7,972 nucleotides of DNA from a virus (taxonomy: Duplodnaviria; Heunggongvirae; Uroviricota; Caudoviricetes), in IMG/VR virus record IMGVR_UViG_2671180884_000020, positions 1 to 7,972 of that record, one strand, 5' to 3'. This document shows positions 3,001 to 6,000 of the stretch, piece after piece. The position numbers are program-made. Within the stretch, counting starts at the first letter, position 1; every line of letters starts with the position of its first letter.

Positions 3001-6000
3001 ATGGACAGAGCAGCAGTGGAATGCGTCCGGTGGTAAAGGCACTGTGACGGATGACAGTGGCAGGAAGGCGCTGCGACTGGAAAAACAGCCGGGTAAACTG
3101 ACCTCCTGGAAGATGTTCCGTACTGTTGCGGTGGAGGAGGCAAAAAATCTTCTCAGTAAGGGAGGTGAAATTGCCGTGCGGTTTAAGATCCCGGAGGGTG
3201 TCGAACTGGTTAACGGTCAGTTTGTCTTTGGTCTGTACTGGCCGGTGTCGCAGTGGGCGTCAGGCGCGACAGCAAACAGCATGCTGGCGTCCTTCTTCCT
3301 TCAGACGGATGCATCAAATCTGAATCTGATGTACCACAAGGGGGAGTCGAATGCGCAACTGGGCACATTTGGGGCATTTGACCATAACTGGCATACAGTT
3401 GTTTTCCGCTTTGCGGGAAATAACAGCGAAAAAGTGGTGCCGGTGATTGATGATACAGAGCAGTCTGCGTTTGACCTGGTGATGTGGACAAATGATGGCT
3501 TTACAGCAGATACGCTGACGCTGACAGATATCACGGGGGCAAAAGCGACGTATCCGGTACTGCTTGATACGGTCACAGTCAAAGTTAACGAAAGCCGGGC
3601 ATCATCATAACCGGCAAAAAAAACCGCCAGCGGCAGGAACGGAAGCTGGCGGAGGTAATCCCAATGGAGAATGTAAAGAAAAGATGCTTTCGTATATCGG
3701 TTTTTTAAATGAAAACAGTTCTCATTGTCAACCATAACGGTAAGAAACTATGACATTTGTTCATCAGGTGATGCTGTACTTCTGTACGGCGGTCTGTGTG
3801 CTGTATCTTCTTTCGGGTGGGTACAGGGCAGTGCGCGATTTCTGGCGCAGGCAGATTGATAAAAGGGCCGCAGAGAAAATCAGCGCCAGTCAGTCAGCCG
3901 GAGCAAAAACAGAAGCCCCACTCATTCCGGAACAACCTTCTTAATAACCCCTTTCAACGAGAAAATCCTATGTCAGAAATAAAATCGCTGGTCACTGCTG
4001 AGGCAGTGAAGGAAGTCCTGCGCTCTGAAGAAGTCCGGAGCGCACTGAAACAGCAACTTCGGCAGAACCTTGAGGCGCGTCTTGATGCAGAAGTGGATTC
4101 AATTCTGGATGAATTGCTTGGTGCACAGCCGGAACCATCCCCGGAACTGCTTCCGGAACCACAGGCGGAAGATGTCACCACGGAAAATGGTGATATTCAG
4201 CCGGAGCCACCGGTGACGGATATGACAGACACACAGCCAGAATCGGGCACAATGCTGTAACGGTGAGTCAGGGTCATCAGTAAAGAGCTGGTGGCCCTTT
4301 TGTTGTTGTGAGCTTCCGAGTACGGGAGACGGGGTATGTACCAGATGGAAAAAATCACAACAGGTGTGTCATACACCACGTCAGCGGTGGGAACGGGCTA
4401 CTGGTTCCTGCAGTTGCTGGACAGGGTTTCCCCGTCTCAGTGGGCGGCAATAGGCGTGCTGGGGAGTCTGCTGTTTGGGCTGCTGACATATCTGACTAAC
4501 CTGTATTTCAAAATCAGAGAGGACCGGCGTAAGGCGGCGCGGGGAGAATGAACTGGTGAGCAGAAAACTCCGCTATGGTTTATCGGCTGCCGTTCTGGCG
4601 CTGATTGCCGCTGGCGCTTCTGCGCCTGACATTCTCGACCAGTTTCTGGATGAAAAAGAAGGCAACCACACCACAGCATACCGTGATGGTGCGGGTATCT
4701 GGACCATCTGCCGTGGAGCCACCCGGGTGGATGGTAAGCCTGTTATTCCTGGCATGAAGCTGTCGAAGGAAAAATGCGACCGGGTTAATGCCATTGAGCG
4801 TGATAAGGCGCTGGCATGGGTGGAGAAAAACATCCGGGTGCCACTGACCGAACCCCAGAAAGCGGGGATCGCGTCATTCTGTCCGTACAACATTGGCCCC
4901 GGTAAGTGTTTCCCGTCGACGTTTTATAAACGAATTAATGCTGGTGATCGCAGGGGAGCATGTGAGGCGATTCGCTGGTGGATTAAGGACGGTGGCAGGG
5001 ACTGCCGTATTCGCTCAAATAACTGTTACGGTCAGGTATCCCGGCGAGACCAGGAGAGCGCGCTGGCGTGCTGGGGAATCGACAGATAAGCAGAATATTT
5101 TGCTGAAAAATGACGTTGGCCAACGCGGGCGGATAACACGAAATCCTGCGAGCTGGCAAAATGTAAGTGAATAAAGTCAGGAACATTATTTCACGCAGAG
5201 GCACCGTAATGGTGCCTTTGTCATTTCTGCGCTTCGCACAAGCGTAAATAAACCAAAGAACCTTTCAGGATGAGCCCTGGTGGATAACCGGCAGTGGTCT
5301 GGTTAACCCTCTTTGGGCTGGTTATTCCTGTGCGCAGGGTTCATCACTAAAAGGAATCAACCATGAAAGAGATGATTTCTGTCGATCATGAAATATCCAT
5401 GAGTAGTCTGGATTTTCTGAATAACATTATTAATCCAGCCCGGGCAGAAGCCGGAGAAGTCCCTCATGAACCGCGTAAGTTTCTTGCAAAAATTGAGGAT
5501 GAGCTAGAGCTTGATGGAACCGGAAAAAAATTCCGGTTAAACAATAACCAGACAAGAACGGCATACTATGATCTGGATTTTGACCAGATGATGCTCGTTG
5601 GCATGAGGGAGTCAAAGGCCGTTCGTCGTTCTGTGCTGGCAAGACTCAAAGCGATGCATGGTATTCAGATCCCCCGGACTTTACCTGAGGCGTTGCGATT
5701 TGCGGCAAAACTGGCTGAACAGAAAGCAGTGCTGGAAAATCAACTGGCAATAGCAGCGCCGAAGGCTGAATTTGTTGATAACTATGTTGAAGCATCTGGT
5801 CTGATGGGATTCCGGGAAGTTGCTAAGTTACTCGGTATCAAAGAAACCGATTTCCGGCTGTTTTTGTTGGAGAACGGAATAATGTATCGCCTCGCTGGAA
5901 AAATGACGCCTTACTCGCATCACCTGGATGCGGGGCGGTTTAGCGTGAAAACGGGCGAGGCGGGCAATGGTCATGCTTTTACGCAGGTTAAATTCACCCC

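What the first reader, a model, noticed from the sequence alone, without database searches (positions are those of the whole stretch)
3750..4260. Two uncharacterised small genes immediately upstream of the holin
A 64-aa protein with one N-terminal TM helix and basic tail is followed 25 nt later by a 96-aa strongly acidic protein with a Pro/Glu-rich tail. They sit between the esterase and the holin and are not recognisable as lysis proteins. Their placement suggests co-expression with lysis, perhaps as modulators or further cargo.
Basis: seen in the sequence. Interest (0 to 1): 0.5.

Follow-up and report, generated by a model that had tools for sequence, protein, structure and literature searches.

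The report
Two conserved small phage late genes
The two small genes are real and conserved members of two already named but uncharacterised phage protein families (DUF1378, a tiny membrane protein, and DUF826, an acidic cytoplasmic protein). They travel as a portable accessory pair that is not tied to the holin next to them.

Summary
3750-3944 encodes a 64-aa protein with one N-terminal membrane helix and a basic tail (Pfam DUF1378). After a 25-nt gap, 3970-4260 encodes a 96-aa acidic protein (Pfam DUF826): one confident long helix, then a disordered Pro/Glu-rich tail.

Both are under purifying selection. RefSeq already annotates both. The pair occurs in 1,052 of 5,426 complete E. coli genomes and about 300 phage records.

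In Stx-like prophages the order esterase - DUF1378 - DUF826 - S21 holin is almost fixed. However, the same esterase/DUF1378/DUF826 block sits next to mom in Mu-like prophages, with no holin nearby. A short DUF826-like gene and DUF1378 also occur in reversed order after tail-fibre assembly genes. DUF1378 alone follows Rz in two other phage types. E2348/69 has esterase and holin without the pair.

A conserved terminator hairpin separates DUF826 from the holin, and a PasA-family antisense sRNA gene lies just upstream of DUF1378.

Function remains unknown. My best guess (about 0.35) is a non-essential, membrane-anchored late accessory pair that tunes the membrane step of lysis. The overlapping 154-aa ORF and a possible +1 frameshift fusion are probably not real products.

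The parts
3750..3944 (+). DUF1378 gene: 64-aa single-pass inner-membrane protein, predicted N-out/C-in. Conserved membrane helix (L9 Y10 ... L18 Y19 L20 .. G23 G24 Y25), then a basic juxtamembrane helix and a variable tail.
   Evidence: PF07125, 4.5e-35; invariant columns; purifying selection; helix, hydrophobicity, charge.
3970..4260 (+). DUF826 gene: 96-aa cytoplasmic acidic protein. Conserved helical N-domain (1-51), variable acidic Pro/Glu-rich disordered linker, and a conserved hydrophobic C-terminal tip (...GTML; other variants end MML or MMM).
   Evidence: PF05696, 1.9e-28; AlphaFold; purifying selection.
3796..3969 (+). Open upstream extension of the DUF826 reading frame, +1 relative to DUF1378. 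It contains a TTG at 3856 and an A-run followed by a rare AGG codon (GAT AAA AGG, 3858-3866). Probably not coding.
   Evidence: phrog_8301; 134-aa annotations and natural fusion proteins. Against coding.
4270..4308 (+). Terminator-like hairpin plus U-rich tract between the DUF826 stop codon and the holin start. A hairpin is kept at this position in diverged clades and in the Mu-like context.
   Evidence: dG -21.8 kcal/mol, z -4.86.
3616..3697 (-). PasA/PasC-family small RNA gene, antisense to the late operon. It has an invariant TTGACA -35 box at 3730-3725 and an intrinsic terminator at 3636-3616.
   Evidence: weak Esr41 match; alignment with the authentic PasA locus of E2348/69; PasA coordinates.
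1628..3610 (+). NanS-p-type sialate O-acetylesterase (DUF1737 + SASA + DUF6645). It is the upstream partner of the pair in most architectures.
   Evidence: (155 of 155 loci). A 2026 preprint reports the phi24B homologue as a capsid-decorating protein.
4336..4551 (+). S21-type class II (pin)holin with two possible starts (MYQM...). It is the downstream neighbour and not part of the mobile pair.

Best explanation
SHOWN:
- The two ORFs are separate, purifying-selected protein genes of the DUF1378 and DUF826 families.
- DUF1378 has one N-terminal membrane helix with several invariant residues, followed by a basic helix.
- DUF826 has no membrane or signal segment. It is one long conserved helix plus a disordered acidic tail.
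- The two genes are linked in two different gene orders.
- They are embedded in a portable block: esterase - PasA sRNA (antisense) - DUF1378 - DUF826 - terminator hairpin. This block sits upstream of the S21 holin in Stx-like prophages and beside mom in Mu-like prophages.
- DUF1378 also occurs alone at the ends of lysis cassettes and of tail-fibre operons.
- In every context the genes point the same way as the late genes and lie close behind them.

INFERRED:
- DUF1378 inserts N-out/C-in in the inner membrane (positive-inside rule).
- DUF826 is cytoplasmic and docks on the basic juxtamembrane helix of DUF1378, giving a small complex on the cytoplasmic face of the membrane late in infection.
- In this window both are made from the Q-antiterminated late transcript, which reads through the hairpin at 4270-4298 into S and R.

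MOST LIKELY ROLE (guess): a dispensable accessory that tunes the membrane step of lysis, that is, the timing or efficiency of pinholin triggering or of SAR-endolysin release. It would act in trans and would not be specific to S21. In topology this is comparable to the Mu releasin, or to the T4 RI/RIII membrane-plus-cytoplasmic antiholin pair. Neither gene is a member of those families.
For: - Real genes.
- Architecture of the two proteins.
- Pair linkage: DUF826 is preceded by DUF1378 in 170 of 171 IMG/VR loci. Phage-record counts are 309 for DUF1378 and 307 for DUF826. The reversed order (DUF826-like gene, then DUF1378) occurs after Tfa without esterase or holin in L218, L219 and L238.
- Late orientation and tight spacing behind late genes.
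- Adjacency to lysis cassettes in three independent layouts: (1) upstream of S21 (and without DUF826 in L221-223); (2) directly after Rz/Rz1, starting at the end of the Rz match, in BUCT709-type phages L006 and L192-197; (3) after Rz plus one small ORF in a cassette with a different endolysin, L220.
- The Mu releasin has the same N-terminal membrane helix and N-out/C-in layout (PMC9239132).
- No sigma-70-like promoter was found ahead of DUF1378.
Against: - There is no sequence similarity to any holin, antiholin, releasin or spanin family.
- The pair is absent from otherwise similar esterase-PasA-holin-lysozyme regions of E2348/69 and from about 12% of NanS-p phage records (351 versus 309). It is therefore not required for lysis.
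- In Mu-like prophages the block is far from any lysis gene in the loci read.
- A terminator-like hairpin separates the pair from S.
- The predicted fusion model shows no confident packing of the DUF1378 helix against DUF826 (pTM 0.24). The proposed interaction rests only on charge complementarity and gene linkage.
- I found no expression, localisation or phenotype data in the literature searched.
Confidence: 0.35

Rival explanations
1. Host-directed accessory ('moron'-type) membrane pair unrelated to lysis or to the esterase. For example, it could give late superinfection exclusion or interfere with a host inner-membrane protein. Such genes sit at module boundaries because that is where accessory genes are tolerated.
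For: - DUF1378 appears at many module boundaries next to different neighbours: after Tfa beside convergent O-acetyltransferase genes and a Dam-like methylase gene, after Rz, after the esterase, and before terminase.
- The membrane helix has several invariant residues across E. coli, Citrobacter, Enterobacter, Cedecea and Mixta. This fits a conserved host membrane target.
- A terminator follows the block.
- The pair is dispensable.
Against: - No promoter of its own was detected, so expression in the lysogen is not indicated.
- It is always co-oriented with, and tightly spaced behind, late genes.
- It matches no defence-system model.
- Adjacency to lysis cassettes and to the esterase recurs more often than random boundary insertion would suggest.
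Confidence: 0.25
2. Esterase-linked cargo. The two proteins serve the NanS-p-type esterase, for example in folding or oligomerisation, in attachment to the virion, or in its release. That would explain why they move with it.
For: - NanS-p lies immediately upstream in 155 of 155 IMG/VR loci.
- The trio keeps its order despite about 55% esterase identity and a swapped esterase N-terminal domain in Mu-like prophages.
- Esterase followed by DUF1378 also occurs inside the structural region of another myovirus-like contig (L230-234).
- The phi24B homologue is a structural capsid decoration that undergoes processing.
Against: - Esterases with the same three domains exist without the pair (E2348/69).
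- The pair, and DUF1378 alone, exist without any esterase.
- A membrane anchor is hard to fit to a cytoplasmic capsid-decoration pathway.
- The main text of the phi24B virion preprint does not mention these two genes; its protein table is an image and could not be read.
Confidence: 0.2
3. The real product is longer. Either a 134-154-aa DUF826 isoform starts inside the DUF1378 gene (TTG 3856 or GTG 3796), or a programmed +1 frameshift at GAT AAA AGG (3858-3866) fuses the DUF1378 membrane anchor to an N-terminally extended DUF826.
For: - The DUF826 frame is open for at least 45 codons upstream in 50 of 51 unique IMG/VR sequences.
- The distance from the DUF1378 start to the DUF826 ATG is always 202, 208 or 220 nt (each 1 mod 3), so all indels are multiples of three.
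- phrog_8301 matches the 154-aa form end to end.
- 933W L0106 and many NCBI entries use long forms.
- Natural fusion proteins exist in databases (P0152, P0188).
- AAA followed by the rare AGG codon allows perfect +1 re-pairing of tRNA-Lys.
- Synonymous divergence of DUF1378 is lower in the overlap (pS 0.42 versus 0.71).
Against: - pN/pS of the extension frame is 1.03, so there is no protein-level constraint.
- One natural variant carries a change that is synonymous in DUF1378 but makes a stop (TAA) in the extension.
- The AAA-AGG site is absent from diverged clades.
- In the Mu-like module the frame relation changes (218 nt, 2 mod 3), the extension is only 27 codons, and DUF826 has its own strong AAGGAGG ribosome-binding site.
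- The third frame is also open for long stretches here, so an open frame is not unusual in this sequence.
- The extension is predicted disordered.
- The database fusions are explained by loss of one base in the A-run.
Confidence: 0.05

Closest known systems
Pfam DUF1378 (PF07125) and DUF826 (PF05696): uncharacterised proteins of Stx-converting and related lambdoid phages (933W L0106 region, VT2-Sakai H0118/H0119)
   Same: Both genes score far above the Pfam cut-offs. They share gene order and position with hundreds of phage and prophage records, and RefSeq uses these family names for identical or near-identical proteins.
   Different: Nothing differs; these are ordinary members. The families have no assigned function. 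The only paper found that names both simply lists them between nanS-p and S (PMC10462455).
Phage Mu gp25 'releasin' (DUF2730)
   Same: It is a small late protein with an N-terminal membrane helix, predicted N-out/C-in, and a cytoplasmic remainder. It is encoded near lysis genes and acts on SAR-endolysin release (PMC9239132). DUF1378 has the same predicted topology and occurs at the ends of lysis cassettes.
   Different: There is no DUF2730 match. DUF1378's cytoplasmic part is only about 20-40 residues. It is not consistently within a few genes downstream of an endolysin, and no functional data exist.
T4 RI / RIII antiholin pair (from my own knowledge of the T4 lysis-inhibition literature)
   Same: It combines a membrane-tethered small protein with a small helical cytoplasmic protein, and together they modulate holin triggering. 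The DUF1378/DUF826 pair has a comparable two-compartment layout.
   Different: There is no sequence similarity. RI's working domain is periplasmic, whereas DUF1378 has essentially no periplasmic part (about 2-4 residues before the helix). The partner holin is of a different class. Nothing was tested here.
Small N-terminal-membrane-helix lysis proteins such as phiX174 E and Qin prophage YdfD (from my own knowledge)
   Same: They have a similar size and the same layout: a conserved N-terminal membrane helix followed by a basic cytoplasmic tail.
   Different: There is no sequence similarity. Those proteins lyse cells on their own by blocking cell-wall precursor synthesis. DUF1378 sits in phages that already have complete holin/endolysin/spanin sets, and no toxicity data exist.
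Phage 'moron' cassettes (accessory gene plus terminator inserted between late genes, for example lambda bor and lom; from my own knowledge)
   Same: The block is portable, dispensable, found in unrelated phage backbones at module boundaries, and ends in a terminator-like hairpin.
   Different: No promoter of its own was detected ahead of the pair, so expression independent of the late operon is not shown.

Membership tests
Pfam DUF1378 (PF07125) | Profile score above the curated cut-off over the full length | tested here: met
   120.1 bits against a cut-off of 25, residues 1-59 matching profile positions 1-59 of 59. phrog_494 scores 4.8e-37.
Pfam DUF1378 (PF07125) | About 50-64 aa with an N-terminal hydrophobic helix carrying the LY(F/G)...LYL..GGY motif, then a basic segment | tested here: met
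   Invariant columns L9 Y10 V15 L18 Y19 L20 G23 G24 Y25 R29 D37 K43 across E. coli, BUCT709-type, Cedecea and Mixta homologues, and the same core with Enterobacter and Mu-like members. Hydrophobicity maximum at residues 3-21.
Pfam DUF826 (PF05696) | Profile score above the curated cut-off | tested here: met
   98.8 bits against a cut-off of 25, residues 1-57. phrog_311 scores 5.2e-37.
Holins (class II / P21 S family, or any Pfam holin family) | Match to a holin profile, and for class II two membrane helices | tested here: not met
   Neither ORF hits a holin family at E<=0.1. DUF1378 has one membrane helix and DUF826 has none.
Releasin (Mu gp25, DUF2730) | Sequence membership in DUF2730 | tested here: not met
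   No PF10805 hit at E<=0.1.
Releasin (Mu gp25, DUF2730) | N-terminal membrane helix with N-out/C-in topology and a cytoplasmic C-terminal part | tested here: inconclusive
   Predicted only. There are no charges before the helix and 7 K/R within 20 residues after it. No experiment.
Releasin (Mu gp25, DUF2730) | Gene within a few genes downstream of the endolysin, and required for SAR-endolysin release | tested here: not met
   In the window the gene is upstream of S and R. It lies downstream of the lysis genes only in BUCT709-type and L220-type phages. The requirement for release cannot be tested with these tools.
T4 RIII-like cytoplasmic antiholin | Binds the cytoplasmic domain of the holin and delays triggering | not testable with these tools
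   DUF826 matches no other family. It is only generically similar: small, helical and cytoplasmic.
Moron cassette | Own promoter upstream and terminator downstream, giving expression independent of the late operon | tested here: inconclusive
   A terminator-like hairpin is present and conserved. No sigma-70-like promoter was found ahead of DUF1378 in the window. Only a weak 9/12 match was found in the Mu-like locus.
Programmed +1 ribosomal frameshift gene | Slippery site and downstream open frame conserved across relatives, with coding constraint in the shifted frame | tested here: not met
   The AAA-AGG site occurs only in one clade. pN/pS in the shifted frame is 1.03. One natural variant has a stop there. 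The frame relation changes in the Mu-like module.

The most novel reading that the evidence does not exclude
DUF1378 and DUF826 together form a previously unrecognised, portable two-protein regulator of phage lysis: a membrane anchor plus a cytoplasmic acidic adaptor. It would act on pinholin triggering or SAR-endolysin release in trans, and so would influence the timing of Shiga toxin and virion release in most Stx phages. A separate, less likely twist (about 5%) is a +1 frameshift at AAA-AGG that makes a membrane-tethered DUF826 isoform.
Probability: 0.2. Interest if true: 0.6.

Novelty: already known. Interest (0 to 1): 0.3.

Why it matters
These two genes sit between stx/nanS-p and the lysis genes in most Stx-converting phages and in about a fifth of complete E. 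coli genomes, yet nobody has assigned them a function. If they tune lysis, they would affect when and how much Shiga toxin and phage are released.

The practical results here are:
- They should be studied as a pair. They are linked in two gene orders.
- They are part of a mobile esterase/PasA-sRNA cassette, not of the holin unit.
- The longer 134-154-aa annotations of DUF826 (such as 933W L0106) are probably mis-called starts.

Otherwise the finding is an ordinary, already catalogued pair of proteins of unknown function.

Tried and rejected
- **Lambda orf-64.** It has the same length and a similar position between Q and S, so I tested it as a DUF1378 homologue. There is no alignment at all.
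- **Searches that found nothing.** Profile searches of both families against all PDB sequences gave only chance-level hits. NCBIfam and PADLOC defence models gave nothing.
- **Fold search.** Not run. The DUF826 model is a single long helix plus disorder, and the fusion model has pTM 0.24, so any matches would be meaningless.
- **Long DUF826 isoform or +1 frameshift fusion.** Examined in detail and judged unlikely.
- **Literature search by locus tags** (L0106, ECs1208 and others). It returned only unrelated papers. Searching for DUF1378/DUF826 found a single descriptive mention.
- **Expression data from EPEC RIL-seq tables.** E2348/69 turned out to lack the pair in both relevant prophages, so these tables could not help.
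- **Esr41 as the identity of the minus-strand element at 3616-3690.** Rejected as a member (23 bits against a gathering score of 102). It aligns better with the PasA/PasC locus.
- **An independent promoter ahead of DUF1378.** Not found in the window.
- **Remote-homology search for DUF826.** Against 1.84 billion representative proteins it found only 56 clusters. Nearly all are short proteins of the same kind and none is an informative domain fusion.
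Full report
**What is in the window.** The 7,972-bp window is the late-gene start of an E. coli lambdoid prophage. In order it holds:
- antiterminator Q (235-642);
- an STnc100/PasD-like RNA element (1199-1404);
- a NanS-p-type esterase with DUF1737, SASA and DUF6645 domains (1628-3610);
- the two small ORFs;
- a P21-type holin (4336-4551);
- a lysozyme (4556-5089);
- a KilAC antirepressor-like gene;
- Rz.

The whole window matches E. coli chromosomes at 94-99% identity, and RefSeq annotates the same genes there. The interval 3750-4260 is 100% identical to strain JE86-ST05.

**Checking the observation.** ORF-A (3750-3944, 64 aa) and ORF-B (3970-4260, 96 aa) are exactly as described, with a 25-nt gap.
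- ORF-A has a hydrophobic stretch at residues 3-21, then 7 K/R within 20 residues (pI 9.2).
- ORF-B has pI 4.05 and net charge -15.5. Its last 45 residues contain 9 Pro, 11 D/E and no K/R.
- AlphaFold models ORF-B as a short helix (10-17) and a long confident helix (20-49), followed by disorder.
- In a natural fusion protein the ORF-A part is one helix over residues 3-37.

**They are real genes in named families.** ORF-A is Pfam DUF1378 (4.5e-35) and ORF-B is DUF826 (1.9e-28). The matching PHROGs are labelled unknown function. Between diverged copies, pN/pS is 0.08-0.45 in the annotated frames. Pooled values are 0.27-0.43 in frame against 1.4-2.2 out of frame.

The pair occurs in 1,052 of 5,426 complete E. 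coli genomes, at 2,714 places and up to 8 per genome. In the phage collection DUF1378 is in 309 records and DUF826 in 307, against 351 records with the esterase. The only paper that names both families simply lists them between nanS-p and S (PMC10462455).

**Is the pair tied to the holin?** In IMG/VR loci the esterase lies upstream in 155 of 155 cases and the S21 holin downstream in 141 of 142. The one exception is an IS insertion into DUF826. This fixed order cannot tell which neighbour matters, so I looked at diverged relatives. Seven layouts emerged:
1. Stx-like: esterase - DUF1378 - DUF826 - S21 holin. The same order occurs in a Citrobacter prophage.
2. A related lambdoid group: DUF1378 about 100 nt upstream of S21 without DUF826, and with the esterase about 950 nt upstream (L221-223).
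3. Mu-like prophages of E. coli and many gut metagenome contigs: esterase (55% identical, with a different N-terminal domain) - DUF1378 - DUF826, between the tail-fibre genes and com/mom, with no holin nearby.
4. Mu-like prophages of Enterobacter, Cedecea and Mixta: tail-fibre assembly gene - DUF1378, beside a convergent acyltransferase. In L218, L219 and L238 the order is tail-fibre assembly gene - short DUF826-like gene - DUF1378, so the pair is reversed.
5. A myovirus-like contig: esterase - DUF1378, followed by baseplate genes.
6. BUCT709-type phages: S21-like holin - SAR-type lysozyme - Rz/Rz1 - DUF1378, starting at the end of the Rz gene, followed by a tailspike gene.
7. Another phage type: holin-like genes - a different lysozyme - Rz - one small ORF - DUF1378 - HNH - terminase.

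Conversely, both relevant prophages of EPEC E2348/69 have esterase - PasA - holin - lysozyme with neither small gene. Their esterase has the same three domains.

From this I conclude:
- DUF1378 is the wider, autonomous element.
- DUF826 is its frequent partner. Linkage in two gene orders argues for a functional pair.
- Neither depends on the S21 holin or on the esterase.
- Adjacency to lysis cassettes and to the esterase both recur.

**Boundaries of the block.**
- Downstream of DUF826 there is a stable hairpin followed by a U-rich tract (4270-4308; dG -21.8 kcal/mol, z -4.9). A hairpin with different sequence occupies the same place in diverged clades and in the Mu-like context.
- Upstream, between the esterase and DUF1378, the minus strand carries a perfect TTGACA box (3730-3725) and an intrinsic terminator (3636-3616). 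Both are conserved across all clades examined, including the Mu-like module.
- This minus-strand element aligns with the PasA locus of E2348/69. PasA lies on the minus strand at 743499-743415 of NC_011601, between the esterase and the next gene.
- PasA/PasC are published Hfq-dependent sRNAs that lie between the sialic acid esterase and the holin (PMC8550237; bioRxiv 10.64898/2026.05.13.724894).
- The mobile unit is therefore esterase - PasA-family sRNA (antisense) - DUF1378 - DUF826 - terminator. No sigma-70-like promoter was found ahead of DUF1378. In this window the pair is therefore most simply expressed from the Q-antiterminated late transcript.

**The overlapping long ORF.** The DUF826 frame is open back to 3796 and overlaps DUF1378 in the +1 frame.
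- Long forms are widely annotated (933W L0106; 126-154-aa database entries; phrog_8301).
- Databases hold DUF1378-DUF826 fusion proteins that correspond to loss of one A in the run at 3861-3864.
- The sequence GAT AAA AGG would allow a +1 slip onto a rare codon.
- The frame is open for at least 45 codons in 50 of 51 unique sequences, and all indels between the two start codons are multiples of three.

Against a real long or fused product:
- The extension shows no protein-level constraint (pN/pS 1.03).
- One natural variant has a DUF1378-synonymous change that creates a stop in the extension.
- The slip site is confined to one clade.
- The Mu-like module has a different frame relation, a 27-codon extension and its own AAGGAGG ribosome-binding site ahead of DUF826.

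I rate a long or fused product at about 5%.

**What the proteins probably do.** No similarity to any characterised family was found in Pfam, NCBIfam, PADLOC or PDB sequences. DUF826 is a very small family, with 56 clusters among 1.84 billion representatives.

What the sequences show is a single-pass membrane protein with several invariant residues in its membrane helix, almost no periplasmic part and a basic cytoplasmic helix. Its partner is a soluble, strongly acidic helical protein with a disordered tail. That tail usually ends in a short hydrophobic tip (TML, MML, MMM, TLL, TTL) in the longer forms.

From gene linkage and charge complementarity I infer a small complex at the cytoplasmic face of the inner membrane, made late in infection. 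My preferred role (about 0.35) is non-essential tuning of the membrane step of lysis. The reasons are:
- DUF1378 sits in or beside three different lysis-cassette layouts, in one of them starting where Rz ends.
- It is co-oriented with late genes in every context.
- It shares the predicted topology of the Mu releasin (PMC9239132).

The rivals are a host-directed accessory membrane function (0.25), a function serving the esterase (0.2) and the long/fusion product (0.05). A 2026 preprint reports the phi24B esterase homologue as a capsid-decorating structural protein (bioRxiv 10.64898/2026.04.10.717836). None of these can be settled computationally.

**Verdict.** The genes are ordinary members of two catalogued but uncharacterised families, so the finding is already known as an annotation. 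It has modest interest as an open functional question in Stx phages.

Noticed in passing
window 3616-3730, minus strand: A small RNA gene antisense to the late operon lies between the esterase and DUF1378. It has a perfect TTGACA -35 box (3730-3725), a weak -10 box, and an intrinsic terminator with a T-run (3636-3616). Promoter and terminator are conserved in all clades examined, with different stem sequences that still pair. The element aligns with the PasA locus of EPEC E2348/69. Rfam gives only a weak Esr41 match (23 bits against a gathering score of 102).
   Followed up: yes
window 1199-1404 (+), with terminator-like hairpin 1374-1393: A strong Rfam STnc100 match (143 bits against a gathering score of 47) lies between Q and the esterase. 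A 2026 preprint relates STnc100 to the PasD sRNAs found upstream of the esterase. It probably corresponds to the short pR'-proximal transcript that Q antitermination reads through.
   Followed up: partly
window 3796-3969 (+); slip candidate 3858-3866: The DUF826 frame is open through the 3' half of the DUF1378 gene. The motif GAT AAA AGG would permit a +1 slip. Databases contain 134-154-aa start calls and DUF1378-DUF826 fusion proteins (P0152, P0188). I judge this probably non-coding, which makes 933W L0106 and similar annotations likely mis-called starts.
   Followed up: yes
window 3873-3898: A stretch of about 26 nt (GAGAAAATCAGCGCCAGTCAGTCAGC) is nearly invariant between clades whose synonymous sites are otherwise saturated. 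Synonymous divergence of DUF1378 drops from 0.71 to 0.42 in this 3' part. The cause is unknown; possibilities include dual coding, an RNA element or a recombination joint.
   Followed up: partly
window 4270-4308 (+): A stable terminator-like hairpin (dG -21.8 kcal/mol, z -4.9) followed by UUUUGUUGUUG lies just upstream of the holin. E2348/69, which lacks the two small genes, also has a hairpin plus T-run just before its holin. A terminator ahead of S may therefore be a general feature that keeps the holin silent without Q.
   Followed up: partly
window 4336-4347; L190 2814: The holin here has two in-frame starts (M-Y-Q-M-E-K), giving 71- and 68-aa forms. The extra residues add no positive charge, unlike the phage 21 antiholin form (my own knowledge). 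The E2348/69 holin, in loci without DUF1378/DUF826, starts directly at MEK (68 aa).
   Followed up: no
L182 4212-5312 (-), L219 3164-3673 (-), L235, L243: In Mu-like prophages, DUF1378 (with or without a DUF826-like gene) sits beside convergent sugar O-acetyltransferase genes: an Acyl_transf_3 type or a type I read as hexapeptide-repeat from its sequence. Elsewhere its neighbour is an O-acetyl esterase. This may only reflect the usual position of lysogenic-conversion genes after tail-fibre genes.
   Followed up: no
window 6726-6911 (+), inside Rz (6506-7000): A 61-aa ORF with a lipoprotein signal (…LVVSAC) is embedded in the +1 frame of Rz. This is the expected Rz1 outer-membrane spanin. It is not annotated in the closest RefSeq match.
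   Followed up: no
L021 4047-5400: In one IMG/VR prophage the DUF826 gene is cut after residue 30 by an insertion-sequence-like insertion (my reading of two transposase-like ORFs). It is the only locus of 142 without the holin within 400 nt downstream.
   Followed up: partly
PV340545.1 (L002 4371-4661) and related PhiR phage records: DUF826 is labelled 'head completion protein' in several recent phage submissions. No family search here supports that name, so it looks like an annotation artefact.
   Followed up: partly
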